From Ostreococcus lucimarinus (Eukaryota), in NCBI GenBank assembly GCA_000092065.1, contig CP000595.1: a DNA stretch of 64,000 bases. One strand, 5' to 3'. Shown here one piece after another: positions 25,351 through 64,000 of the stretch (position 1 is the stretch's first letter; each line of letters starts with the position of its first letter). Below the pieces are notes generated by a model, which saw only the letters and a program-made list of their open reading frames with translations, had not been told where the DNA came from and made no database searches. The position numbers were made by a program, and so were the translations under genes.

Positions 25351-28080
25351 TTAAAGGATGCCGTTCAGAATGCGTTGGTAAAAGTCGTACTGACGCGTGC
25401 TCCAGGCGTCGATGGAGTCTGAAATCATGCCCAGTACCGTTTCCACACACTGTTCTTCGCTTAAAGCGAGGTTGAAGCGTCTTCGGAGTTGCTTGATGAC
25501 CTTCGGTCCGGCGTTGAAGCACGGACAACCGCTGGCGCCCATCATTTCGACGAGCAATACGATGCGCTCGGCGTGTTCGCGAACGGCGAGGTAGCCCTGG
25601 ATGCACAGAGCCTTGTACGCGTCGAACGCGTCCGAACGGCTGCCTTCAACATCGCTGTCCATGACTTCCAAGTATTCTTTCGTGAGCTTGAACGGGCTCG
25701 ATTCAAAGTTTATGCCGCCGGGAGACGTGGAGAGCATGAAATTGAAGTCGATGTGTATCAAGTGTCCATCGTCGTGCAGCAAAATATTGCCGTTGTGACG
25801 ATCCTTTACTTGCAACAAGTAGGTAAGGATGGAATATCCCGCCAGTGATTCGACGAAGTTATTCTGCGCCTTGCGGAATTCTGGCGTACCAACACCAAAC
25901 TTTCGCTCAAAGTGTTCGCGCAGCGTCGTGCCGCGTTGCGATCGCGACTTCAACGCGTGCACGCTCGGCGCATCCGTCACCGCTTCAATCAACGCACTGT
26001 GCGTGTTCGTGGTCAAGATGTCAAAGTCTCGAATCCAGCATCGAACACCGGCGGTGCGATAGATTTCTGCAAACGTACGAACGAGTTGCAGCGCCAGTAA
26101 TTCTTGCCTGCAATTATCGCCGGCCTTTATGATGATGGGCTTTAGCCCCCATCCAGGCAGATTTCCATACGGTGATGAGTGTCGAATACGCTCGCGCTTG
26201 TCAGCCCACAATTCGCCCAATCCACCCGCGCTGCGCTTGTGCGGGGAAGATGTGAGCGCTGCGCCCACTCCAGTCGCCGTGGGAAGCGAAGTGACGTCAA
26301 AGGCGTCCTTCTCCGGAGCCCACGATGTGCGGTTCACCTGAGCTGCCATCTCAATCAAACCAATTTCTGATGGTTTACGTTGGTGCGGTGATTGCGTAAT
26401 GTCCATGTGACCTTGCGTGGCGACGACGTGCATGACGACGCTTTCGCTGTGCTCATCCGCCGTGAGGACGACATTGACGAGCTCGTCCGCGAGAGAGTCC
26501 TCTGTGCTAAATGAATCAGTCCCCGCACCGTCTATCGTCGGTAAGTCCCCGTAAGCTTTGTCTAGCGATCTACGAATACGTTCGCGCGAGTTGATCGTGA
26601 AATCATCTCCCACAGGATAGAAATCTTCAACGGTTGGAAGGCCCGAAGACTCGGCAGACGATGTAGCGTTGTGCATCTCTTCTTGCGTCGGATTGGAGCT
26701 CACGACTTCTAAACAGACGAGGTACGGCGCCTTCTCGCGACTATTCAACAGCACAGCCTCTTCCCACGGTACGCGAATCACTCGCTCCATCTCGCCGTGG
26801 CCCATCGGAAACAAGATTCCGGTACCCTTGTCGGTGTGGCGAAAGCGCTTGTTCATCTGCGCCAACTCTCGACGCAAGATACTTTGACGATTTTCGAGCG
26901 GAAACACCTTCGACAGCTTCAACGAAAGCTCGCACAAGTCATCCGTGAGCTTCATCGTCGCGTCGAACGTTTTCCTTCGAAGATTCAACGCCTTGGCTCC
27001 ATCCTCAGCCGGTAACCCCTTCGTTCCGCACACGCCAAAGAGCGACGACAATCCACCCGAGGGTGATCGTAATCCCGCATCTTTCGTCTTGCCCGGTGAC
27101 TTCTCTTTGTCTTTGTGATGATCTCTATTCTTCTTGCCCGAGTCTTTTCGCGAACCGGAGGGAGAAGACCGAAAGGAGAGCGCTCGCGAGACGCCGGCGA
27201 GGAAACCTCCCGCGGCGGGCGGCGACTCCACCCTCTTCCCATCGAAGCCATCGCTCGATCTTCGCCCCGGCGACTTCGCCATGCCGAATATTCGTCTCGG
27301 TGGCGTCACGGGTTCCGGAGTTGACTCCGCGGGCGCTCCCGTCCGCCCGTTCCTCGGCGGACTTCCTCCTCGCTCCGTCGTCGCCGTCGCCGCCTCCGTC
27401 CCCGCGCTCTCCCCTCCCATCGGCACCCGCTCCTCAAACGGCGCCGGCCACGTCCCATTCTTCACCGCTTCCCTCGCGCACTCGTCCCTAAAATCCAACA
27501 CCGCCTTGGACTCCGCGCTGTCCCCCGCCGCCGCCGCCAGCAACCAGCATATCTTTGTCGCCAGCCGCAGCGATCGTCGACTCGTCATCACCATCATCCT
27601 CTCAAAGCTCGCCAGGTGTCCCGCGTCGCTCCCGCGCTCGTTCGTCTTATTTTCCACCGCGTGCACCCACATCGTGACCATCTGGCTCAGGTACCGCTCC
27701 AGCGCCTCGTCCGACGTCTCTCGATACAGTCTCGCGCACAGGTAGTCGCTCACCCCCGCGTGTTCGCGTCGCTCCCACAGGTTCGACACCGCGATCCACG
27801 CGTCGAATCGCTCGAGGTGTTGAAAGTAATCCAGCAGCACGCGCGCCCGCTCGCGCTCGCGCGCGATCGCGCTCGCGTCGTCGCGCGAGGTCGTCGAGAC
27901 GCGCGCGCCCGAGTCCCCATCGCGCGCGACGCCGACGCGCGCGTCGTCGTCGTCGCGCGCGCGCGCGAGGGCGTCCGCGCGCGCCGCGCCGCGCGTCTCG
28001 CTGTCGACGAAGCGTTCGAGGGAGTCGGCGAGCCAGGCACCGCCGCTCTCGTGCCGGGCGTGCCGCGACGCGCGATCCAT
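25351..28080 (-). CDS. Phosphatidylinositol 4-kinase, type III beta-like (PIK1/PI4KB)
   Basis: PI3/PI4-kinase catalytic domain (GDNCRQELLALQL, KDRHNGNIL catalytic loop, HIDFNF activation loop) with an N-terminal lipid-kinase-unique helical region. Start at Met 28080 or 28164. Confidence 0.85.
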   Translation of the reverse strand: MDRASRHARHESGGAWLADSLERFVDSETRGAARADALARARDDDDARVGVARDGDSGARVSTTSRDDASAIARERERARVLLDYFQHLERFDAWIAVSNLWERREHAGVSDYLCARLYRETSDEALERYLSQMVTMWVHAVENKTNERGSDAGHLASFERMMVMTSRRSLRLATKICWLLAAAAGDSAESKAVLDFRDECAREAVKNGTWPAPFEERVPMGGESAGTEAATATTERGGSPPRNGRTGAPAESTPEPVTPPRRIFGMAKSPGRRSSDGFDGKRVESPPAAGGFLAGVSRALSFRSSPSGSRKDSGKKNRDHHKDKEKSPGKTKDAGLRSPSGGLSSLFGVCGTKGLPAEDGAKALNLRRKTFDATMKLTDDLCELSLKLSKVFPLENRQSILRRELAQMNKRFRHTDKGTGILFPMGHGEMERVIRVPWEEAVLLNSREKAPYLVCLEVVSSNPTQEEMHNATSSAESSGLPTVEDFYPVGDDFTINSRERIRRSLDKAYGDLPTIDGAGTDSFSTEDSLADELVNVVLTADEHSESVVMHVVATQGHMDITQSPHQRKPSEIGLIEMAAQVNRTSWAPEKDAFDVTSLPTATGVGAALTSSPHKRSAGGLGELWADKRERIRHSSPYGNLPGWGLKPIIIKAGDNCRQELLALQLVRTFAEIYRTAGVRCWIRDFDILTTNTHSALIEAVTDAPSVHALKSRSQRGTTLREHFERKFGVGTPEFRKAQNNFVESLAGYSILTYLLQVKDRHNGNILLHDDGHLIHIDFNFMLSTSPGGINFESSPFKLTKEYLEVMDSDVEGSRSDAFDAYKALCIQGYLAVREHAERIVLLVEMMGASGCPCFNAGPKVIKQLRRRFNLALSEEQCVETVLGMISDSIDAWSTRQYDFYQRILNGIL

Positions 28081-38021: not shown

Positions 38022-39452
38022 ATGGCGCGCGCGTCGCGCGCGGAGCTCGCGCGGCGCGCGGTCGCGATCGCCGTCGCGGTCGCGGGCGTCGCGCTCGCGG
38101 CGACGCGCGCGAGCGACGACGCGCGCGCGACGGCGACGGCGACGGCGATCGCGACGCCGACGGCGCTCGACGCGCGATTTCTGCGATGGATGGACGCGCG
38201 CGCGCTCGCGGCGACGGACGACGCGCGAGCGCGCGGGATGGTCGTCGCGCGCGTCGAGGATTGGGAAGACGAACGCGCGGTGGGCGCGAGGCGAACGCGC
38301 GGGGCGTTTGGCGCGCGGGGAGGGAAAGGGGAGGTGGAGACGAGGATCGCGCGGGACGCGGCGCTCGAGCGCGGGGCGACGACGGCGGGCGCGGGGAAGG
38401 ATGAGTGGGCGCTGGCGATCGAATTGATGCGAGAGCGAGCGAAGGGAGGGGTGAGCGCGTACGCGCCGTTCGTGGAGTCGCTGTACGAACACACGCCGGC
38501 GAGGGCGGTGGAGACGTCGAGAGCGGCGCGCGCGCGGTTGGAGGGACACGCGGCGGCGGAGACGATGAGAGAGTACGAACGAGACGCGGAGGATGGATGG
38601 CGAGCGGCGCGAAGGACGTTTGAGACGTTTCCATCGATTTTTTCCGTTCATGAATTCACGCGCGCGGCGTTCGAGGAGGCGTTGGCGATCGTTCGCGCGA
38701 ACTCTTTCGAGGCGAGGAGCGAAGACGGGACGCGCGCGCGCGCGCTCGTGCCGATGGCGCATTTGCTTTTGCACGACACCGGGAGCGAGGTTCCGTGCGT
38801 GAAGATCGTAGACGGTGTGTTCGTCATAAACGTTGACGAGCACGAAGAGGGAGACGAGTTGTCGTGCAGTCACGGTGATTATTCCGACGCCGAGACGTTT
38901 GCACGATTCGGCGTGAGCGCGTTTTATTCAGCCGAGAAGAACGCGAGAAATAAGATAAAGTTTGCGTTTCCGAGCGAAATTTATTCCATGAAAAGCTTAG
39001 ATCGATGTGGATCCGTCGAAAATATCGCATTCACGGACGCGGGTGCGACGGAAGAGTTTATGTGCGCCTTGAGACTCGCCTCGGCGAATGAAACCGAATG
39101 GGCCGCAATCTCAAAGTCTAAAGCCAGCGTTCGAGCGCTTCGTAAGAAACCGCTGAGTGAGGAGAGCGAGATAGCGGTTTACGAAGCATTATTTGCCACG
39201 CTCACCGAGTTACTGAACTCCTACCCATCGAGCGATAACGAAGACGAGCGATTATTACAAAGTCGGACGCTGCAGTCGGCGCCCGACGAGGAGCGCGCGG
39301 TGACGATTCGTCTTCGAGAGAAACGTCTCGCGCTGAGTAGTTTGAATGCTGTCCAATACGCCGGTCGTCAACAACTCGGCGGTTTGTTGTTCGACAAGCA
39401 TTTTGCCGACGTGTTACCGTCTCCTGTCAACGTGCGGCAGACAAACGGATGA
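38022..39452 (+). CDS. SET-domain lysine methyltransferase-like protein (Rubisco LSMT/SETD3-like architecture)
   Basis: SET-like core (ALVPMAHLLLHDTG...) followed by a substrate-binding-like helical C-domain. N-terminal signal/transit-like hydrophobic stretch from Met 38022. The ORF formally opens at 37941 with GTG inside the repeat. Confidence 0.5.
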   Translation: MARASRAELARRAVAIAVAVAGVALAATRASDDARATATATAIATPTALDARFLRWMDARALAATDDARARGMVVARVEDWEDERAVGARRTRGAFGARGGKGEVETRIARDAALERGATTAGAGKDEWALAIELMRERAKGGVSAYAPFVESLYEHTPARAVETSRAARARLEGHAAAETMREYERDAEDGWRAARRTFETFPSIFSVHEFTRAAFEEALAIVRANSFEARSEDGTRARALVPMAHLLLHDTGSEVPCVKIVDGVFVINVDEHEEGDELSCSHGDYSDAETFARFGVSAFYSAEKNARNKIKFAFPSEIYSMKSLDRCGSVENIAFTDAGATEEFMCALRLASANETEWAAISKSKASVRALRKKPLSEESEIAVYEALFATLTELLNSYPSSDNEDERLLQSRTLQSAPDEERAVTIRLREKRLALSSLNAVQYAGRQQLGGLLFDKHFADVLPSPVNVRQTNG

Positions 39453-43309: not shown

Positions 43310-44683
43310 ATGGGCGCGCGCGCGCGATGGGCGCGCGCGATGGCGGCGGTGACGATGGTGACGCTCGCGACGTCGATCGCGGCGGCCGAACGCGTCGAAC
43401 GGGAGGACGCGGTGCGAATGTATTACGTCAACGCGCGCGGTGCGACGACGAAGCGATTGGAGATGGAGCGCGCGGTGGTGGCGCTGGACGCGCGCGCGCG
43501 AAGGATCGAGCGCGTGGACGCGAAGAGACGATCGACGCTGCTGATGACGTACGAAACGGCGACGTGTGGACGCGGAAGATTCGCGCCGAGCGCGCACGCG
43601 GAGCGACGAGAACGATTCGGCGAGGAGTACTTGAACGCGCTGGGGACGTCGCTGTCGCACCTGGAGGCGGTGTACGCGGCGTACGACGACGGGGCGAGCG
43701 TTGCGTTGATCATGGAGGACGATGCGCGATGGGACTTGCTGCCGACGTGGTCGAGCGATTTGGAGAAATTCGTGGAGCGGTTGCCGGAAGACTGGACCGT
43801 GACGCAGTTGTCGGCGCTCGGCGATTACGCCGAGACGACGAAATTGTTTTACGATTGGCAGCGCGAGCGAAAGAATGCGCCGGGACAGAGTTTGACGACA
43901 TTACCCAAAGGTTCGCGGCGTTTGAGCGGTACGCAGGCGTATCTGATCAGTCGTAAGGGGATGAGTAGATTAGTGAAGGCGTATCGATCGCCTGCTGGAA
44001 AAACGGATGTGTGTTCAATGACGTGCGTGGAGCTCGAGGAGTGCGTCTTGGCCGACGGTGTGCACTTGGATGAGAAGTATAGAGTCGCCACGCCGCCACT
44101 ATTTGTCGAACGCTCCCCAAGCAGCGACTTTCTCGATTCGTCGCGAAATATGATTCTCAGCTGGGCCGTCTCGCTGTCGCTGACTCAAGGCAAGGCGGCA
44201 AATTTGCGCATGGACGGAGATATGATTCGCGATGTTTTGGCGGAAGGCTTGAAAGTTCCCGAACACTTGAAGCCCAACACGTTCATGGAGCATTTCAATT
44301 ACCATTGCAAGCTCAATCACGGCGGTGGTTCAAAGTGTTCGATCAAAAAGGCGTACTTGGTCAACCAAAAGCCGCCACGGATGGAAGAGCCAGCTCTGGC
44401 CGAAGAAGCGCCCGTAGACGCCGAAGAAAATTTCCGAGGTCACAATGCATCCGCATTAGGTCGCGTGGTGATGTCTCGTCGAGATCTCGCTCCGAAAGAA
44501 ACGAGTATCTGGTCCGAGTATTCCAAATCGACGCCCTTCATTTCGATGTTCGTCTTCGGCGCGTTGACGACGTTTGTGCTCGCGGCGAGCTTCGTGTTCG
44601 CCAAAACACGCCCCGAGTCGTCCAGGGACGAGTTACAGACCATTCTCCCTATAGATCCGCAAACTGAGGAGTATTATTCCTAA
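43310..44683 (+). CDS. Glycosyltransferase family 25-like membrane protein
   Basis: N-terminal signal anchor, GT25-like MYYVNARGATTKRLEMER...ERVDA and SLSHLEAV...IMEDDA blocks, and a C-terminal TM helix. Confidence 0.5.
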   Translation: MGARARWARAMAAVTMVTLATSIAAAERVEREDAVRMYYVNARGATTKRLEMERAVVALDARARRIERVDAKRRSTLLMTYETATCGRGRFAPSAHAERRERFGEEYLNALGTSLSHLEAVYAAYDDGASVALIMEDDARWDLLPTWSSDLEKFVERLPEDWTVTQLSALGDYAETTKLFYDWQRERKNAPGQSLTTLPKGSRRLSGTQAYLISRKGMSRLVKAYRSPAGKTDVCSMTCVELEECVLADGVHLDEKYRVATPPLFVERSPSSDFLDSSRNMILSWAVSLSLTQGKAANLRMDGDMIRDVLAEGLKVPEHLKPNTFMEHFNYHCKLNHGGGSKCSIKKAYLVNQKPPRMEEPALAEEAPVDAEENFRGHNASALGRVVMSRRDLAPKETSIWSEYSKSTPFISMFVFGALTTFVLAASFVFAKTRPESSRDELQTILPIDPQTEEYYS

Positions 44684-44723
44684 TAATAAATCTTTGTTGT
44701 ATTAAAGACACCTAGCTATAGCT

Positions 44724-45269
44724 CTATTCGTCCGACTCTGGCGGTTGCATTCGTTTCGCGTTTATAATCTTGTCCTTCAGCTCGGTGTAGTCCCCGGTGA
44801 AATCGAAAATCAACCCGAGATTGTCCACAATCTGATGCCACACCTCGCACTCACCACACTGCACCCACATCGTCCCCCGTTCGAGGACCTCAGGGTTGAT
44901 CATCCGCATCGTTCGCCCCTCGCACTTGTTACACGTAAACGTCATCTGCACGCGCCGTCGCGTTCGCGGCAGCTGCACGCTCGCTCGCCCCTCTTCTTCG
45001 CCCTCGTCATCGCTTGACGATGTACCACCGTCACCCAAGACGTTGACGCGCGCCACCGATCGCGCGCGCGCGAGCGGGACGTCGTCGCGACGTCGCGCGA
45101 AGAGTCGCGTCGAGAGCGACGGCGCGCGCGCGAGGACGACCGAGGCGGCCCGAGAGCGACGCGCGACGCGCGAGGACGAGGGCGTGCATGCGGATGTTGT
45201 GCTGCGCTCGCGCGCACGCGCGAACGGCGACACGCGCCCCGGTCGGGCGAGGGTGAGGGCGAAGGACAT
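44724..45269 (-). CDS. DNL-type zinc-finger protein (Tim15/Zim17/HEP-like Hsp70 escort), organelle-targeted
   Basis: FTCNKCEGRTMRMINPEVLERGTMWVQCGECEVWHQIVDNLG matches the zf-DNL C4 ribbon after a presequence. Confidence 0.8.
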   Translation of the reverse strand: MSFALTLARPGRVSPFARARERSTTSACTPSSSRVARRSRAASVVLARAPSLSTRLFARRRDDVPLARARSVARVNVLGDGGTSSSDDEGEEEGRASVQLPRTRRRVQMTFTCNKCEGRTMRMINPEVLERGTMWVQCGECEVWHQIVDNLGLIFDFTGDYTELKDKIINAKRMQPPESDE

Positions 45270-45454
45270 GACGCGCCGCGCGCGCTGCGTTGTGACGACG
45301 AGCTCACTCAGATGTGATTGATCGTTCTGGTCGCATATGAATTACATAACTCGCTATACATTCGGAACATCAATCACTGCTAGCAATCGTAATGACTAAA
45401 TCCGTCGTCGTTCTCCAAGCGCGTCATCGTCGCGCGCGTCGTCGCTTGCGCGAG

Positions 45455-46789
45455 CTTACGCGAGGGAGGCGAGGAGGGCGCTGGCGGTCTCTTGGACATC
45501 AGCAAGAAGCGCGGTGGCGGCTTCTTGGTCCTTTTGGCGGATGGAGAAGTCGAGGTTTTCGAGCTTCTTGTAGAAGGCCTTGGCTTGCGCGGCGTCCGCA
45601 CCCTTGATTTCGACGAGGTTGTTGATGTCGAAGCGGAGGGTACCGACTTGGCGGCGAAGCTCGTTGGACGCTTGGGTCCAGTACTTCTTGCCGACGTACT
45701 CACCAACATCCTTGTTGATGCGAGTCTATAAATCGTAAGTGGCACATTGCATCGTCAGTCTCTCATTCGTCGTCCTCGTCACGTTCGTCGTCGTCATTCG
45801 CCGCGTTTCGCGTCGAGCGCCGCACGCACCACAGACTCCGTCGCGCGCGCCGCGGTTTCCTTTTGCGAAAGCTTTTGGAAAGAGAAGCGGGACGGGCCAT
45901 CGGATCGCGGCTTTTGGTCCAATTCCAAGTCACGAGCCTTCGCGCGCACGAAATTTGTCAACAGTCAGTCTCGAGCTCTCGCGCGCGTTCGCTCGCCTCA
46001 ACCACCCTCCACTCGCCCGATCGATCGATCCGGGCGGATTCGAGCGAATCTCGCGAGATTCGAGGGCGCGACGCGATTTTACGCGTAAATAGCGCTTCGA
46101 GAGCGTTGAATACGGTATTCGACCCCCCGAATGGGTTTTCCACGCTCGCATCGATCGACGCGACCGGCCCGGGTTCGACCGGTCGTCCAGGTTCGACGCA
46201 CCTCGTAGATGAGCTGCAACCCGGTTTGGTTCTCCACGCGCTTGTCCGTGAGCTCGATGCCCGTCGCCGCGAACGCGGCCGGGGTCGCGCTCAAGACGAC
46301 CGCCGTGACGGCGGCGAGGGACACAGCCTGTGCGCGCGCGATAAAATCCAGCACACGCGCGATCGCGAGTTCGCACGCGACGCGCGCTCGAGCGTCGGAC
46401 GACGCGCGCGCGCGCGGGATGACGATCGATCGCGAATGCGATAGCGATCCACGCCCCGCGCGAATGTGCGCGCGCGTCGACGTCGAGCGCGCGTCGGTGG
46501 ACGCGATCGCGCGTTTACGGAGCGGGGCGATTCGGTCAGTCGAAATTCATTCGATCGTTCGCGCGCGTCCCGGGCGTCGAAAGCGCGTCGGACGCGTCGA
46601 CGCGTGCGCGATAGAATCGCATCATCACCATCGTTCGCGCTCGTATCAACCATCGATCGCTCGATCGCGGGTCCGTACCTTGTTCGCCGAGGCCTTGACG
46701 ACCGTGTTCGCCTTGACGGACTTCGAGGTGGTGATCTTTTGGGCGATGGCCTTACCGGTGAAGGCGGACGTGGACGCGGCGACAGACAT
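45455..46789 (-). CDS. psbQ: Photosystem II oxygen-evolving enhancer protein 3 (PsbQ), four exons: complement(join(45455..45724,45829..45936,46202..46327,46679..46789))
   Basis: Not in the ORF track. Exon 1 is an S/T/K-rich stromal transit peptide (MSVAASTSAFTGKAIAQK...) ending AAG|GTACGG. Exon 2 is a hydrophobic lumenal signal with AFA|A cleavage site (AVSLAAVTAVVLSATPAAFA-ATGIELTDKRVENQTGLQLIYE). Exons 3 and 4 (ARDLELDQKPRSDGPSRFSFQKLSQKETAARATESV / TRINKDVGEYVGKKYWTQASNELRRQVGTLRFDINNL...FYKKLENLDFSIRQKDQEAATALL...) align with the PsbQ mature region (..[50 protein letters not shown]..). All introns are GT..AG and phase 0, two with ACTGAC branch motifs. Mature length is about 147 aa. Confidence 0.7.
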
Positions 46790-46961
46790 GGTCGAACGTT
46801 CGTGTGCGATGCGAAGTGCGGGTCGCGCCGGGCGCGCGCGGGATCGGATCGAGGTCGCGGCGGACTCGAGGTCGCTCGGGGGGGGGGGGTCGGCGCGAGT
46901 CAGGATTCGACGTGTAGGGTTTTCGACACGAATGTCACAACATTAGGCGCGACGCGCACGA

Positions 46962-49844
46962 TTATACGGGCGTACCGCCCCGATCTCGATCTCGATCTCG
47001 ATCTCGATCTCGATCTCGATCCGCGGACTCGCGCGTGAAGCCGTCTCGACCGTTCTCGTTTGGGCAATACTTTGCCACGCCGTCGTCCGAGATGGGCACG
47101 ACAGATTGTTCGCCGGCGTCGTAACTGATCGACGGCGACCACACGAGCTGGATGGTTTCGCCGACGTTCTCGAAGGAGTGAATCCAACCGCACGGCATGA
47201 ATAAAATGTCGCCCGCCTCGACGACGGCGCCGAAGCCGCGCGAACGCGCGATTTTGGGTTGTTTGTCCAAGTCGACGTTGAAGGCGTTCCCCAGATAGAC
47301 GGGATTGTACAACTCTTCACCGCCGACGCGCGCGGAGAGCGGGTAGAGGTTTTCCTCATCGGCGCGATCCCAGACGACGGCGCGTTTCGAGCCTTGAACC
47401 ACTAAAACCATCACGTGAGCCGGTTTGGCGTGATGATGCGCGTGATACGCTCGAACGCCATCGCCACTGGCGAAGAGCATAAACTTTTTGAACTCCGTAG
47501 GTCGCTCGCGAAAGAGTATCTTGGAGATATACGACCAGTCTCCGCGCAATTTCGTTTCGACAGCTGCTTTGACGCGTTCGGCGAGTGCCGGACATTGTTC
47601 AATAATGTGCCACGAGTGTACGCTCGGTGGCCATAAATTATCCGCTGGGTGTAAAAAGTCCACGCCGCGTTTTCTGGCTATTTTGGATTCCCCCATCAAC
47701 TCACTATCGAAAAAATCTCTCAGTGTTTTAATCTTTCCTTTGCCTTCGAGAAAATCCAACGTTTCATTCAGCGTCAAACCTCGTGTCGTTTCGAGACGTT
47801 CGGAAAGATCTCGCAAAAGTTTTTGATGCGTCGTTTTCGTCATAGACTGGAACAATGGCACTATTTTCGACCCCAAGTCGGCGAATGCATCGCCGCATAA
47901 ATCTAAAATGAGCTCTCGCGTCACGACGCTTCGTAGCACAGTTGCAAGGTTAGCGTTTTCGATCACCACTGGTTGCCCTTCCTTGACGTATTTCCGCTCG
48001 AACGCGTCAATTGATAGTGTAGATGCGTCAACGCGCTCGATGTTGTTCCACTGAAAACTCGGATCGCTCGACGACAGCAGCAGCGGTATATCATCATGTT
48101 GCGGCGCCTCGACCGTCGGCGCGCGTTTGTTTCGTTGATGATCCTCAACTCTTTCGCCACGACCGAGGTTGGCTTGATCATCTTGAATTCGAACTAAAGA
48201 CTCTAGGAAAGACGTAACACTTTGGGCATCGTTCGGTCCGATGAAACTCTGTGCGATCGCATTCAACTCCTTATGATTTCGCACATACGGCCCAAAGTGT
48301 GACGTTTTCATCTCGCGTCTGGCTTTTAGTGACTCTTCCACGGGCCACGGACAATTTAATGGATCGCAACACGGCGCATTAATGTCATACTGACTTTCTG
48401 CTTGAAGCAAAGTAGTCTTAAGCGCACCCTCAAAGCCGTAACGATTCAATAAAGTCGCGCGATCTTTCAGAAAGGCGACATCTTCTTCGGCGATGCTGTA
48501 CTTTTCCATCAACTCCTCTATTGTTGCGTCAGTGACTTCCGCCAAAAACGCGCTAAACGTGGAAGGAAACGTGCGGTGAATGGCACCCCCCTCCACCCAA
48601 CATCTGTAATCTAAGATAGCTCCGATAGTCGGTGACCAGTTTCCGTTTTCAAGCTCCACGATGCACGCCGGTTTAGTTTCGTTGGCAGACTTTGCGTGGC
48701 ACCTTTCCATCCACGGCAAAGTTTTTTCTTTCTCATAGATCACATAACCTGCAACATAGTGCCAGTGATGGCGCGTCCCGGGAATGCTCACTGTGCTGGT
48801 TTCGTCCTCACGTTTCAACATGTCCTCGTTGTCTATCAGCATCAACGACCCTTTGGCTTCGTCGATGAAGATGTTGAATATATTTCTGTCGTGGTTACCA
48901 AGGAGGAAGTCCATCAGAGTCATCCCTATGACGTCCTCTCGCTTAAGTCGCGATACAACGAGAAAAAGTTCTTTCGTCATCATGTTCTGGCCTGGTCTGG
49001 CACCATTGATATCAGTTGGCGCGATTCCCTTTGCCCAGTCTGTGACGAGAACGTGAGTGTTTTGCTTTCCACCAAGAGAACGTGTGTCGCGTGGCGTGAA
49101 AAACTTCAAAGTCTTTGCCTCCGTAGGCGACACAAGTCGCCCGAACCCCATTGTTTCGATCAATCGATGGATGGCTGATATCCTTTCCGGGGATCGATCA
49201 CGCTGACTGTGGAAACCGCCACACGTTTCGTCAACCGGCGTCGCGTTTGCGTGTTGACGAAATTGTCCACGAATACCGCACCAAGCCTTGACGCTCACCT
49301 TTTTCCCTTCGCTCGTAACTCCTCGCAACACCATTGCCTCAGATTTGCCGACATACCTCCCTGGATTTCCCGCGTCGATGCGCTCAACTTTGACGTCGCA
49401 GTCGCAGCGCTCGCACCACCCACGCGAGTCGACGACGTCGTCTTCGCCCAGCTCGGAATGAGGCACGCATGTGGAGCAAGACGAACACGTCTCAAAGCTC
49501 GCGCGTGTACGCTTGTGATTTGTGTCTGCCCCGCGTTCATCGTCACTATCTTTCCGCACGTCGGCGTCGGCGTAATCAGCGTCAGCGACACCATCGGCGA
49601 GTTTCAGCGCTCTAACAGCAATCGTCTCGCGACGCGGCGACGTCCTCGTGAGTGCGACGGTGAGCACGCACACGAACGCGATAGAATAACACGGTGGTTT
49701 CCACCGCGCGGGCCTTCGACGCCTCTTCGTGGCGTGATGCCACATCGGAGGCGCGGAGTGACGTCGGGACGGCGACAAGCGAGAAGGCGTCGTAGAACGC
49801 ATGGGAACTAAAGCGACGCGTGCGTAACGAATGCGCTGCTTCAA
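46962..49844 (-). CDS. JmjC (cupin) domain protein with an N-terminal kinase-like domain and C-terminal (DR)6 tail
   Basis: C-terminal JmjC fold (HAHHHA..., ILFMPCGWIHSFENVG). The N-half contains a catalytic-loop-like LLGNHDRNIFNIF...LIDNE segment of uncertain family. The last codons are translated from a (GATCTC)n microsatellite. Confidence 0.65.
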   Translation of the reverse strand: MKQRIRYARVALVPMRSTTPSRLSPSRRHSAPPMWHHATKRRRRPARWKPPCYSIAFVCVLTVALTRTSPRRETIAVRALKLADGVADADYADADVRKDSDDERGADTNHKRTRASFETCSSCSTCVPHSELGEDDVVDSRGWCERCDCDVKVERIDAGNPGRYVGKSEAMVLRGVTSEGKKVSVKAWCGIRGQFRQHANATPVDETCGGFHSQRDRSPERISAIHRLIETMGFGRLVSPTEAKTLKFFTPRDTRSLGGKQNTHVLVTDWAKGIAPTDINGARPGQNMMTKELFLVVSRLKREDVIGMTLMDFLLGNHDRNIFNIFIDEAKGSLMLIDNEDMLKREDETSTVSIPGTRHHWHYVAGYVIYEKEKTLPWMERCHAKSANETKPACIVELENGNWSPTIGAILDYRCWVEGGAIHRTFPSTFSAFLAEVTDATIEELMEKYSIAEEDVAFLKDRATLLNRYGFEGALKTTLLQAESQYDINAPCCDPLNCPWPVEESLKARREMKTSHFGPYVRNHKELNAIAQSFIGPNDAQSVTSFLESLVRIQDDQANLGRGERVEDHQRNKRAPTVEAPQHDDIPLLLSSSDPSFQWNNIERVDASTLSIDAFERKYVKEGQPVVIENANLATVLRSVVTRELILDLCGDAFADLGSKIVPLFQSMTKTTHQKLLRDLSERLETTRGLTLNETLDFLEGKGKIKTLRDFFDSELMGESKIARKRGVDFLHPADNLWPPSVHSWHIIEQCPALAERVKAAVETKLRGDWSYISKILFRERPTEFKKFMLFASGDGVRAYHAHHHAKPAHVMVLVVQGSKRAVVWDRADEENLYPLSARVGGEELYNPVYLGNAFNVDLDKQPKIARSRGFGAVVEAGDILFMPCGWIHSFENVGETIQLVWSPSISYDAGEQSVVPISDDGVAKYCPNENGRDGFTRESADRDRDRDRDRDRDRGGTPV
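46982..47020. repeat. (GATCTC)6.5 hexanucleotide microsatellite, coding for the (DR)6 C-terminal tail of the JmjC protein
   Basis: Read directly from the sequence. It lies within the final 20 codons of ORF 46962..49844. Confidence 0.9.
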
Positions 49845-49879
49845 TCACGATAAGTCTATCTATTGATTATTGCTTAATA

Positions 49880-52800
49880 CTATTTTGGGGATTCCCGCGA
49901 GTTCGTGGAGTGCGCGGTGAGATGGCGCTCGTCCAAGGCGATTAAACGTTCGCCGCGTCGGTGTGTTCGAGCTTTCCAGCGCTCACGTAAATCTTGCAAC
50001 TGTGAGCTCAAAGCGCCGTGTTGCTGGCGAATAGTAATCGTAGAGTCAGCCTTGATCGTTTCAAGTAAATCGTCGTCGGCGAAAGGAAGACGTTGACCAG
50101 TCATGCTTCGAAGTTGGATGCGTTCGCTTTCCTTTGCCATTTTCTCTTGATGAATGATCTCTTCGTCTCTCTTGGCGTCGAATTCGTCGACAATCGCCTC
50201 TTCAAATTCCAAGTCGCGAATAGCGCGCTTGATGAGGCCTTCTTCGCCCTCTTCGCGGAACTGGCGAACCAACGTTCGGGCAAAATCATACCATGCCCAT
50301 GCGTGCAGGATGAACAACAAGGCCGTGATGAGATCGACAAAAGTCGAGCCTTGTCCACCTTGTTCGCCTGATTGTTTGAAAATCAGTCCGCCGGTGAATG
50401 TTGCCATAGTAGCAAGTAAGCCATGTGTCTCGATCTTTGCGTACTTTTCGCCGGCATACGGTTTTGCGACGATGTGGAATACAAAGAAAAGTTGCAACAT
50501 ACAATTCACCGTGTATCCACCAATGACTGCACTTCGTCTAGATACGATCACTATGAAGATCAGGATGAATTTTCTCGCGAATATGACCCATTCCCACCAC
50601 CACGCGGACTTGACATTGATTCCCTTGAAGAGCAAACCGAGACGATATTGCACCATTGCTGAATCGTGCTCGCCGACAATGTCTTCTCCGCGAGCGAGCT
50701 GCAGCAAACCGTATGGAATACCGACGATATACAGTATAGCCCAAACGATGACCATAAACAAGTAAAGTGAGTAGGCGGTGCCCCGGCATTGGACCGAATA
50801 GTCGGATACAAAGTGTCGATCGCTGTCGCCAGACGTACCAGTGCACTGCGTGAACTCAGCCAAATATTGAACAAGGGTGGGATAGAGAAGCCACAGAGTC
50901 GCGACGAGCCATGATATTACTATGTCGTAAGCTCTGATGTTTCGCACTTCTTCAAGACCGACATCGTGCTTGTTCACTTTATTCGTGTTACCACTATCGA
51001 TGGCGTTTGTTTCTTCATCTTCAGCAGAATCATTTGCCTTTGTCTTCTTCGTGGCTTCCACTCTAGCTTGGGCCGTTGCCTCTCTCAACTCTTCGACGTA
51101 CTTGATAACCGTGAAGATGATGAACAAGAATATCATCAAGCCTAGTGGGAGCAACTCGTGAAACAGTAGATTTCCGTAAAACTTCCAGCCAATGGCGCAC
51201 TTTGCTGACGCCGACCGTATGTCAGGTAACGAAAGCTTCTCGGCGATAAGTAAGAATGCTTTCATCGAATCCGGCCATGCGAGGTCTAAATTTTTCGCCA
51301 ACGCTGTCATTTGTAAATAGGTGACAAACGATTTTATCATGCCGACGACTTGTGAACTTCGGCGTTGATTGACAACCCGAATGAGCCACACCAGCAACAA
51401 TATCCAGAGAAAGTTGACGACGACGATCGGAAAGTTGAGCACTCGATATGCTCCTGCCGAACAATCGTAACATTTTGGTGGATATGCTTCTCGAATGGCG
51501 TGGTACGCATAACCATTCGCACAAGCTGCGCACATAGCACCAGTGTACCCTGCATCAAGACATGTGCTGTTTACGCCGCCTAGGCACGCGTCAGGGTACG
51601 GACACGCGCGAAATTTCAGCGTTTGTCGGTCAAATCTACTGAAACCAGGAAGCGCTTCGACATTTTCGAGCTCATCACCGTAACATTTTGCACCTTTCGG
51701 GCATGCCATACATTTGTAATCATCGAGTGGGAGTTGTCGATAATAGCTCTCGAATGGGACACTCGTTTGAGAGATGCAGTGGCAGGAACTCTTGCTCACG
51801 TGACCAAGGGCGCCTAAAAGTTGCACTCCTGACTGTGCTTGATATGTTTGCCTCAATCTGCCGTCAACTCGCGAAGTATCCATGGAGATTGGGCACGACG
51901 TGCATGCTCCGTCACCGTGCGCCACTTTGTAGAAGCCATTCTTGCACGGCACACACATGCCATACGGGTGAAGAGCATCGAGCCATCGAGATGACCCAGA
52001 TGTAGCTGTCTTATATAGAGTTATATTCGTTTCGACATAAATGGTATCGATATCTTCAGTATATCCCGTGCCTCCACTAATGTCGGCGGTGAAGCCAGGA
52101 ATGCACTCGCACACGCCAGAGCGAAGCACGCTGTTCGGTTTGACTGTTGAGCAATTCATGACCGTCGTTGGAGTTGAAGGTACGATACTCACATTCAACG
52201 TTGAAGCCGAAAAATTCAGCTCATAGGCATTCGCGCGCTCACCGATGATTGTGATTGAATCGAATTTCGCCAAGCCGTTCACCATCGCCGCCTCTGTCCC
52301 TGAAATGCTCGCCACAGCGGGCGATACACTGACCGTAAGCGTCGTATTGATATCGACGCACACGTTTCCTACAGAATCGATCGCCGCGATGACTGGTGCA
52401 GGCGAAAGTGCGAAGTCATTTTCGTTTATGAAGGGAGGTGCCGTGACGACGGCCAACGCTGTCGGCGCGCCAGGGACTACGGTGAACTCCAACATGTCAG
52501 TCTCCAGCACAGGATAGAGCGCACCAGGACATCGACTTGAGCCACATGATGAAGCGAATCGCAAGCGATAGGTCCCAGCTAATGCATTTTGAATATGCAG
52601 ACCGACATTATAGTGTGTGTCGGGCGCAATACCACTATACCCAGCCTCCCTGCAATATGATGGTGCGGGGTTGGTGTACACCACTCTGTACGTGTAAGCA
52701 CCAGTCGTGGGATTACTGGAGACCACAGTCCTCGGGCTAGAGTCAAGTGAATCTTTGCACCATCCCACTCCACCATTTACTGCGAGAAGAGATCCATCCC

Positions 52801-63874: not shown

Positions 63875-64000
63875 CGTCCGAACGTCGACGCGCGCGCGTC
63901 CGAACGTCGACGCGCGCGCGGCGCGATGCGGGCGCGACGGGCGGCGACGGCGGCGACGACGCGATCGAGGGCGAGACGAGACGAGGACGGACGACGCCTC

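What the first reader, a model, noticed from the sequence alone, without database searches (positions are those of the whole stretch)
45455..46789. Hidden four-exon PsbQ (OEE3) gene absent from the ORF track
No listed ORF corresponds to it; the track shows only out-of-frame fragments (45380..45745 on the minus strand, 46079..46354 on the minus strand). The four exons reconstruct a complete bipartite thylakoid-lumen precursor (stromal S/T/K-rich peptide, hydrophobic signal with AxA site, roughly 147-aa mature protein) whose C-terminal 125 aa align block-by-block with PsbQ. All junctions are phase 0 with GTACGG/GTGCGT donors and AG acceptors.
Basis: partly seen in the sequence, partly recalled or inferred. 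Interest (0 to 1): 0.6.

Follow-up and report, generated by a model that had tools for sequence, protein, structure and literature searches.

The report
Annotated four-exon psbQ gene of Ostreococcus

Summary
The observation and the interpretation both hold. On the minus strand, four exons (46789..46679, 46327..46202, 45937..45830, 45725..45456) are separated by three phase-0 GT-AG introns of 351, 264 and 104 bases. Spliced, they give a 204-aa protein that is 100% identical over its full length to the annotated PsbQ/OEE3 of Ostreococcus lucimarinus (XP_001421745.1, UniProt A4S8C8). It matches Pfam PsbQ end to end (61.9 bits, cut-off 26.9) and Chlamydomonas PsbQ from a solved PSII structure (E = 1e-28). 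Its model is a four-helix bundle whose best structural matches are PsbQ. Two intron-less transcript contigs from public runs carry all three exon-exon junctions exactly as predicted. A related Ostreococcus-type locus has the same three intron positions. The gene is ordinary and already known. One side observation may deserve a look. The lumen-targeting signal has no twin-arginine motif, and neither do eight closer homologues, whereas core chlorophyte PsbQ has RR at that spot. The route across the thylakoid membrane (Tat or Sec) is therefore open.

The parts
46790..47009 (-). 5' untranslated region, minimum extent. It overlaps the last codons of the upstream 960-aa ORF and a (GATCGA)n microsatellite.
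   Evidence: Transcript contig L001 nt 1-219 aligns colinearly to window 47009..46790. The contig could also merge overlapping transcripts of the two same-strand genes.
46679..46789 (-). Exon 1 coding part, codons 1-37: Ser/Thr/Lys/Ala-rich presumed stromal transit peptide, ending ...VVKASANK.
   Evidence: In-frame 47-aa ORF 46646..46789. Present in L001 and L002.
46328..46678 (-). Intron 1, 351 nt, phase 0, GTACGG...CAG, GC 0.667.
   Evidence: Absent from transcripts L001 and L002. Same position in L003 and L006. Not alignable with L003.
46202..46327 (-). Exon 2, codons 38-79: hydrophobic lumen signal AVSLAAVTAVVLSATPAAFA (46327..46268), predicted A-F-A cleavage site, and start of the mature protein (ATGIELTDKR...LIYE).
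   Evidence: the mature N-terminus of 9hei_Q aligns to A58. Alignment A1.
45938..46201 (-). Intron 2, 264 nt, phase 0, GTGCGT...AAG, GC 0.614. It splits the invariant motif LIYE|ARDL.
   Evidence: Same position in L003 and L006.
45830..45937 (-). Exon 3, codons 80-115: extended N-terminal region of the mature protein and start of helix 1.
   Evidence: In-frame 55-aa ORF 45794..45961. Model.
45726..45829 (-). Intron 3, 104 nt, phase 0, GTGCGT...TAG, GC 0.567. Present in the Ostreococcus-type relative L003 and absent (exons 3 and 4 fused) in the more distant relative L006.
45456..45725 (-). Exon 4 coding part, codons 116-204 plus the TAA stop (45458..45456): most of the four-helix bundle.
   Evidence: There is no in-frame start codon and a TAG lies directly upstream, so no ORF is listed.
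45357..45455 (-). 3' untranslated region, minimum extent.
   Evidence: L001 aligns down to window 45357 and L002 down to 45374.

Best explanation
This is the nuclear psbQ gene (OEE3, the 16-17 kDa extrinsic subunit of photosystem II) of Ostreococcus lucimarinus, or of a strain with identical sequence here. It is transcribed from the minus strand and three spliceosomal GT-AG introns are removed, giving a 615-nt coding sequence for a 204-aa precursor.

Shown here: the exon-intron structure, the spliced transcripts, identity to the annotated protein, PsbQ family membership by sequence, and a predicted four-helix-bundle fold.

Inferred from established knowledge of PsbQ in green algae and plants:
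- The N-terminal roughly 37 residues act as a chloroplast transit peptide.
- The following hydrophobic stretch (residues 38-57) takes the intermediate across the thylakoid membrane.
- The thylakoidal processing peptidase cuts after Ala-Phe-Ala57.
- The 147-aa mature protein binds the lumenal face of PSII next to PsbP and PsbO, where it helps retain Ca2+ and Cl- at the Mn4CaO5 cluster.

Open: which translocase carries it. The signal has no twin arginine, so a canonical Tat route is not supported by the sequence. A Sec route or an atypical Tat signal are both possible.
For: - Splicing gives an open 204-aa frame with phase-0 GT-AG junctions.
- Pfam PsbQ PF05757: E = 1.1e-16, 61.9 bits against a cut-off of 26.9, profile positions 1-203 of 204.
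- PDB PsbQ chains: 6kac_Q (Chlamydomonas PSII-LHCII) 9.9e-29, 9hd7_Q 2.4e-28, 9hei_Q 5.7e-25, 8bd3_U 2.7e-22. The alignments run ungapped across the exon 2/3 junction (LIYE|ARDL) and the exon 3/4 junction.
- 100% identity and coverage to P0001 = ABP00039.1 / XP_001421745.1 / A4S8C8, named 'psbQ, PSII-Q, OEE3' of O. lucimarinus, on a 468,366-bp contig.
- Transcript contigs L001 (one C>T difference, A16V) and L002 (identical coding sequence) align to the window in four blocks. They contain all three junction 30-mers, which the genome lacks.
- Relative L003 has the same three intron positions. L006 shares introns 1 and 2.
- Between the window and L003, the exons, intron 3 and the 3' UTR align at 73-75% DNA identity. 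Introns 1 and 2 do not align.
- The AlphaFold model has helices 104-127, 131-156, 161-178 and 182-203 at pLDDT about 88-97.
- The top 25 Foldseek PDB matches are PsbQ, PsbQ', CyanoQ or PsbQ-like NDH subunits. The best is 6kac_Q at 2.6e-06.
Against: Nothing argues against the identity of the gene. Against the textbook Tat step, the n-region reads ...KASANK|AVSL... with no arginine, whereas core chlorophyte homologues have S-R-R-A-V-L-G-G at the same alignment columns. The N-terminal 100 residues of the model have low confidence (pLDDT about 40-55), so nothing structural can be said about them. The sample types of the runs behind L001 and L002 were not available. That they are RNA-derived is inferred from the absence of the introns.
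Confidence: 0.97

Rival explanations
1. The gene encodes a PsbQ-like (PQL/PnsL-type) paralogue that serves a complex other than PSII, such as the chloroplast NDH complex, and is not the genuine PSII subunit.
For: PnsL-type subunits of NDH-PSI supercomplexes appear among the structural matches (9grx_6, 7wff_g, 7f9o_b) and share the four-helix fold.
Against: Those matches are much weaker (Foldseek E = 0.02-0.2, 13-16% identity) than genuine PSII PsbQ of green algae (E = 2.6e-06, 40% identity). The sequence search gives 1e-28 to PsbQ chains taken from PSII-LHCII supercomplexes. From my own knowledge, not tested here, Mamiellophyceae are reported to lack the plastid NDH complex.
Confidence: 0.02
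2. The locus is a genuine PSII psbQ gene, but the protein reaches the lumen by the Sec pathway, or by an arginine-independent Tat signal, and not by the canonical twin-arginine route used by plant and Chlamydomonas PsbQ.
For: There is no arginine in the n-region of the lumen signal of the window's protein or of eight closer full-length homologues (NK, SK, AK or KK before the hydrophobic core). Five core chlorophyte homologues have RR at the same columns. The exon 1/2 junction at that spot is confirmed by transcripts, so this is not a gene-model artefact. No basic residue lies in the c-region. The mean Kyte-Doolittle hydrophobicity of the h-region is slightly higher in most of this group (1.35-2.03) than in the RR-bearing group (1.43-1.55). 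From established knowledge, replacing RR with KK blocks thylakoid Tat transport in plant systems.
Against: The hydrophobicity difference is small and the best 13-residue windows overlap between the groups. No import experiment exists here. The control of whether PsbP of the same lineage keeps RR could not be completed, because no retrieved PsbP could be assigned to Mamiellophyceae. Nothing on the point was found in the searchable literature, so it may be either undescribed or simply not indexed.
Confidence: 0.45
3. The exons are a chance assembly or a dead pseudogene.
For: None, beyond the absence of a single long ORF.
Against: The product is identical to an annotated protein. Spliced transcripts exist. 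The coding exons are conserved in relatives while introns 1 and 2 have diverged beyond alignment.
Confidence: 0.005

Closest known systems
Ostreococcus lucimarinus CCE9901 psbQ / OEE3 (XP_001421745.1, ABP00039.1, UniProt A4S8C8)
   Same: The 204-aa product is identical residue for residue.
   Different: Nothing in the protein. The window is presumably the same genome.
Chlamydomonas reinhardtii PsbQ (OEE3) as seen in the C2S2 PSII-LHCII supercomplex, PDB 6kac chain Q
   Same: Same family and same length class. E = 9.9e-29 over residues 14-201, with conserved motifs LIYEARDL and YWT..ELRRQVGTLRFD.N. Same four-helix bundle (Foldseek 2.6e-06, 40% identity). The AxA cleavage site lies at the aligned position.
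   Different: The Chlamydomonas lumen signal carries a twin arginine (ESRRAVLGG) and the window's protein has ASANK|AVSL. There is a 6-residue gap in the helix 2/3 loop region and a 3-4 residue insertion after RSDG.
Higher-plant PsbQ (spinach 1vyk/1nze, pea 5xnl_Q, Arabidopsis 9i4t_Q)
   Same: Four-helix bundle core: rmsd 1.8-3.1 A over about 110 residues, 23-26% identity. Sequence E = 1e-05 to 7e-08.
   Different: Much lower sequence identity, with matches limited to the C-terminal roughly 110-120 residues. From my own knowledge, plant PsbQ is a classic Tat substrate with RR.
Cyanobacterial CyanoQ and red-lineage PsbQ' (3ls0, 3zsu, 4yuu, 8xr6)
   Same: Same bundle fold.
   Different: Only 14-28% identity. 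From my own knowledge, CyanoQ is a Sec-exported lipoprotein without RR. This makes an RR-less eukaryotic PsbQ signal plausible as an ancestral or reverted state, but that was not tested.

Membership tests
PsbQ / OEE3 family (Pfam PF05757) | Sequence match to the family profile above the curated gathering score | tested here: met
   61.9 bits against a cut-off of 26.9, E = 1.1e-16, profile positions 1-203 of 204. E = 1e-28 to solved PsbQ chains.
PsbQ / OEE3 family (Pfam PF05757) | C-terminal up-down four-helix bundle | tested here: met
   The predicted model has four helices at 104-203 with pLDDT about 88-97. Foldseek's best matches are PsbQ chains, with rmsd 1.8-2.0 A over 110-113 residues to 5xnl_Q and 1vyk. 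This is a prediction, not a solved structure.
PsbQ / OEE3 family (Pfam PF05757) | Nuclear-encoded precursor with an N-terminal bipartite presequence ending in an AxA processing site | tested here: met
   A Ser/Thr/Lys-rich N-terminus is followed by a 20-residue hydrophobic stretch ending A-F-A57. The first residue of the mature Chlamydomonas chain 9hei_Q aligns with A58. Actual cleavage was not tested.
PsbQ / OEE3 family (Pfam PF05757) | Physical association with the lumenal side of PSII and support of oxygen evolution | not testable with these tools
   Needs biochemistry or a structure of Ostreococcus PSII.
Thylakoid Tat (delta-pH pathway) substrates | Twin-arginine motif immediately before the hydrophobic core of the lumen signal | tested here: not met
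   The n-region is KASANK with no arginine. Eight closer homologues also lack it, while five core chlorophyte PsbQ have RR at the same columns. The junction at this spot is confirmed by transcripts.
Spliceosomal GT-AG introns of a nuclear gene | GT donor and AG acceptor, removed from the mature transcript | tested here: met
   Donors GTACGG, GTGCGT and GTGCGT; acceptors CAG, AAG and TAG. All three introns are absent from contigs L001 and L002.
Spliceosomal GT-AG introns of a nuclear gene | Intron positions conserved in orthologues while intron sequence diverges | tested here: met
   L003 has all three positions and L006 has introns 1 and 2. Introns 1 and 2 are not alignable between the window and L003, whereas the exons are 73-75% identical. 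Intron 3 was bridged by the alignment.
Introner-like repeated introns (as described in Micromonas) | Intron sequence repeated at many other loci | tested here: not met
   Within the 64-kb window the introns give only short matches (24-86 bases) of a CG-rich stretch of intron 1, one 38-base match for intron 3, and none for intron 2. This was tested only within the window.

The most novel reading that the evidence does not exclude
PsbQ of Ostreococcus and its closer relatives has lost, or never had, the twin-arginine motif that defines PsbQ as a Tat substrate in plants and core chlorophytes. It therefore crosses the thylakoid membrane by Sec or by an arginine-independent signal. That would make the translocation route of an extrinsic PSII subunit variable within green algae.
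Probability: 0.4. Interest if true: 0.35.

Novelty: already known. Interest (0 to 1): 0.08.

Why it matters
For the scan, the result is mainly methodological. The window is eukaryotic nuclear DNA, from a green picoalga or a strain identical to O. lucimarinus at this locus. A prokaryote-style ORF track will therefore miss or fragment every intron-containing gene in it. Biologically the gene is a standard photosynthesis gene that has been annotated and in public databases for years. Its three introns fit the published observation that introns in this very compact genome are concentrated in highly expressed genes (PMC2367439; expression of psbQ itself was not measured here). The only point of possible specialist interest is the arginine-free lumen signal shared with its closer homologues. 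It bears on how Tat dependence of PsbQ evolved and is cheap to test experimentally.

Tried and rejected
1. **PsbP control for the missing RR motif.** Every PsbP I read keeps RR. None of the listed hits was named as Ostreococcus or Micromonas, and P0131's nearest named relative is Tetraselmis.

2. **Literature on an RR-less PsbQ or Tat signals in Ostreococcus and Micromonas**. Nothing relevant was found. The one paper holding all the terms discusses LPA2, not PsbQ.

3. **Functional RNAs in the long introns.** Rfam at E up to 1 over 45200..47100 gave only two sub-threshold matches in the CG-rich part of intron 1: asX3 at 24.9 bits against a gathering score of 40, and an L-myc IRES at 20.8 against 60. 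I regard both as chance.

4. **Introner-like repeats.** Within the window, intron 1 gives only short CG-rich matches, intron 3 gives one 38-base match and intron 2 gives none.

5. **Hydrophobicity of the signal as a Sec/Tat discriminator.** The differences are small and not decisive.

6. **The 5' 875 nt of contig L002.** They do not match the window and encode a Rieske/PaO-type protein. I take L002 to be a chimeric assembly. Its psbQ part is still valid junction evidence.

7. **An alternative splice choice that would create an RR.** Reading through the exon 1 donor, or upstream of the exon 2 acceptor, gives no RR, and the transcripts fix the junction.

Full report
**What is there.** I read the minus strand of window 45200..47100 and spliced it by script. 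It holds four coding exons: 46789..46679 (111 nt), 46327..46202 (126 nt), 45937..45830 (108 nt) and 45725..45456 (270 nt including the TAA stop). The three introns are 351, 264 and 104 nt long. All are phase 0, with donors GTACGG, GTGCGT and GTGCGT and acceptors CAG, AAG and TAG. The spliced coding sequence is 615 nt and the product is 204 aa.
- The stop codon ends at 45456, not 45455.
- The last base of intron 2 is 45938, not 45937.
- Intron 3 is 45829..45726, not 45828/45725.
- ORF 46079..46354(-) is not out of frame. It contains all of exon 2 in frame and runs on into intron 2.

**Why the ORF track misses it.** The reasons are purely mechanical. Exon 4 is the longest coding piece at 89 codons. 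It has a TAG directly upstream, which is the intron's acceptor, and no in-frame ATG, GTG or TTG, so a start-to-stop ORF lister cannot report it. Exons 1 and 3 lie in in-frame ORFs of 47 and 55 aa, below the tool's default 60-aa cut-off.

**What it is.**
- The product matches Pfam PsbQ (PF05757) over profile positions 1-203 of 204, with E = 1.1e-16 and 61.9 bits against a curated cut-off of 26.9.
- Against solved structures, the best matches are PsbQ chains of green-algal PSII-LHCII supercomplexes: 6kac_Q at 9.9e-29, 9hd7_Q at 2.4e-28, 9hei_Q at 5.7e-25 and 8bd3_U at 2.7e-22.
- Those alignments run without gaps across the exon 2/3 junction (LIYE|ARDL, an invariant motif) and the exon 3/4 junction.
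- The homology search returned a protein 100% identical over 100% of the length. The exact look-up names it ABP00039.1 / XP_001421745.1 / UniProt A4S8C8, [quoted passage not shown], from Ostreococcus lucimarinus, on a 468,366-bp contig.

An AlphaFold model built on a 14-sequence alignment gives four confident helices (104-127, 131-156, 161-178, 182-203; pLDDT about 88-97) after a low-confidence N-terminal half. Foldseek against the PDB puts PsbQ of Chlamydomonas, Chlorella, Arabidopsis, pea and spinach at the top. PsbQ' of red algae, diatoms and cryptophytes, cyanobacterial CyanoQ and the PsbQ-like NDH subunits follow.

**Transcript evidence.** Two contigs assembled from public sequencing runs carry the coding sequence without introns.
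- L001 (933 nt, SRR22270300) has one C>T difference, giving A16V.
- L002 (1587 nt, SRR17264770) has an identical coding sequence.
- Both align to the window in four colinear blocks that break at the predicted exon ends.
- 30-mers spanning each of the three junctions are present in both contigs and absent from both strands of the window.
- L001 extends the transcript to at least 47009 at the 5' end and 45357 at the 3' end.
- The first 875 nt of L002 do not match the window and encode a Rieske/PaO-type protein. I take this to be an assembly chimera.

**Comparative evidence.**
- *L003-L005.* These metagenome loci carry an Ostreococcus-type orthologue (exon 4 product 88% identical). It has breaks at the same three codon positions with GT..AG ends.
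- *L006.* This more distant relative keeps introns 1 and 2 but has exons 3 and 4 fused.
- *DNA conservation.* Between the window and L003 the exons are 73-75% identical. Introns 1 and 2 do not align at all. The alignment bridges intron 3 and continues into the 3' UTR.
- *Intron content.* Nothing in the introns approaches an Rfam gathering score, and they are not repeated elsewhere in the window apart from short CG-rich matches.
- *Published context.* An EST study of O. lucimarinus reports that only about 16-20% of its genes or transcripts contain introns, and that intron number and length rise with expression (PMC2367439). A three-intron photosystem gene fits that pattern. The expression level of psbQ itself was not measured here.

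**How it works.** The gene structure, splicing, family membership and predicted fold are shown. The following steps are inferred from what is established for PsbQ in plants and green algae.
- The Ser/Thr/Lys/Ala-rich first 37 residues, which are exactly exon 1, act as the envelope transit peptide.
- Residues 38-57 (AVSLAAVTAVVLSATPAAFA) form the hydrophobic lumen signal.
- Cleavage after A-F-A57 leaves a 147-aa mature protein. This is supported by the first residue of the mature Chlamydomonas chain 9hei_Q aligning with A58.
- The mature protein docks on the lumenal face of PSII with PsbP and PsbO and stabilises the Ca2+ and Cl- environment of the Mn4CaO5 cluster.

**An open point: the translocation route.** In plants and Chlamydomonas, PsbQ is a textbook twin-arginine (Tat) substrate. 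In alignment A1, five core chlorophyte homologues have S-R-R-A-V-L-G-G just before the hydrophobic core. The window's protein and eight closer full-length homologues have NK, SK, AK or KK at those columns and no arginine. I take these eight to be Mamiellophyceae from their similarity, but they were not labelled by taxon. The position coincides with the exon 1/2 junction. That junction is fixed by transcripts and is conserved in L003 and L006, so the missing RR is not a gene-model artefact. Signal hydrophobicity differs only slightly between the two groups. My attempted control, whether PsbP of the same lineage keeps RR, failed because no retrieved PsbP could be assigned to the lineage. The literature searches found nothing on the point. 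I therefore leave Tat versus Sec open, at roughly even odds.

**Surroundings.** The neighbours are unrelated nuclear genes, tightly packed:
- a weak GT25-like ORF at 43310..44683(+);
- a zf-DNL protein at 44724..45269(-);
- a 960-aa Cupin_8 ORF at 46962..49844(-), whose last codons form a (DR)n repeat from a GATCGA microsatellite that overlaps the apparent psbQ 5' UTR.

Compared with L003, the GT25 and zf-DNL pair and the large protein at 49907..52543(-) are conserved flanks. psbQ lies in the opposite orientation, and the 960-aa gene has no counterpart in the 6.3 kb available.

**Verdict.** The gene is real, expressed and correctly reconstructed, and it is already annotated in public databases. 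Interest is low. The arginine-free lumen signal is the only feature worth a follow-up.

Noticed in passing
window 46268..46327 (-) and the exon 1/2 junction at 46679|46327: The lumen-targeting signal of this PsbQ has no twin-arginine motif (KASANK|AVSLAAV...). Eight closer homologues also lack it, while core chlorophyte PsbQ have SRRAVLGG at the same alignment columns. The translocation route (Tat or Sec) is therefore uncertain.
   Followed up: partly
window 43310..52543 compared with L003 1..6345 (also L004, L005): There is a micro-rearrangement between Ostreococcus-type genomes. The flanking GT25-like and zf-DNL genes and the large protein at 49907..52543(-) are conserved. psbQ is inverted relative to them, and the 960-aa Cupin_8 gene (46962..49844) has no counterpart in L003.
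   Followed up: partly
window 46962..47040 (-): A (GATCGA)n microsatellite encodes a (Asp-Arg)n tail at the C-terminus of the 960-aa Cupin_8 ORF. It lies inside the apparent 5' UTR of psbQ (L001 starts at 47009), so the two same-strand genes may overlap at transcript level, or the contig may merge two transcripts.
   Followed up: no
L002 1..875: The 5' part of this transcript contig does not match the window. It encodes a Rieske [2Fe-2S] domain (E = 9e-19) with a weak PaO domain, joined 15 nt upstream of the psbQ ATG. This is most likely a chimeric assembly.
   Followed up: partly
L006 2956..3348 and L008 2436..2786: A more distant green-algal relative has exons 3 and 4 of psbQ fused (no intron 3) but keeps introns 1 and 2. 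Intron 3 was therefore gained in the Ostreococcus line or lost in the other.
   Followed up: partly
window 46355..46514 (-), inside intron 1: A CG-rich, partly self-complementary stretch of intron 1 (nt 165-324 of the intron match their own reverse complement at 76%) has short look-alikes at several other places in the window (e.g. 38092..38395, 27899..27967, 63876..63928). It looks like low-complexity CGCG/TCGACG sequence and not a mobile element.
   Followed up: no
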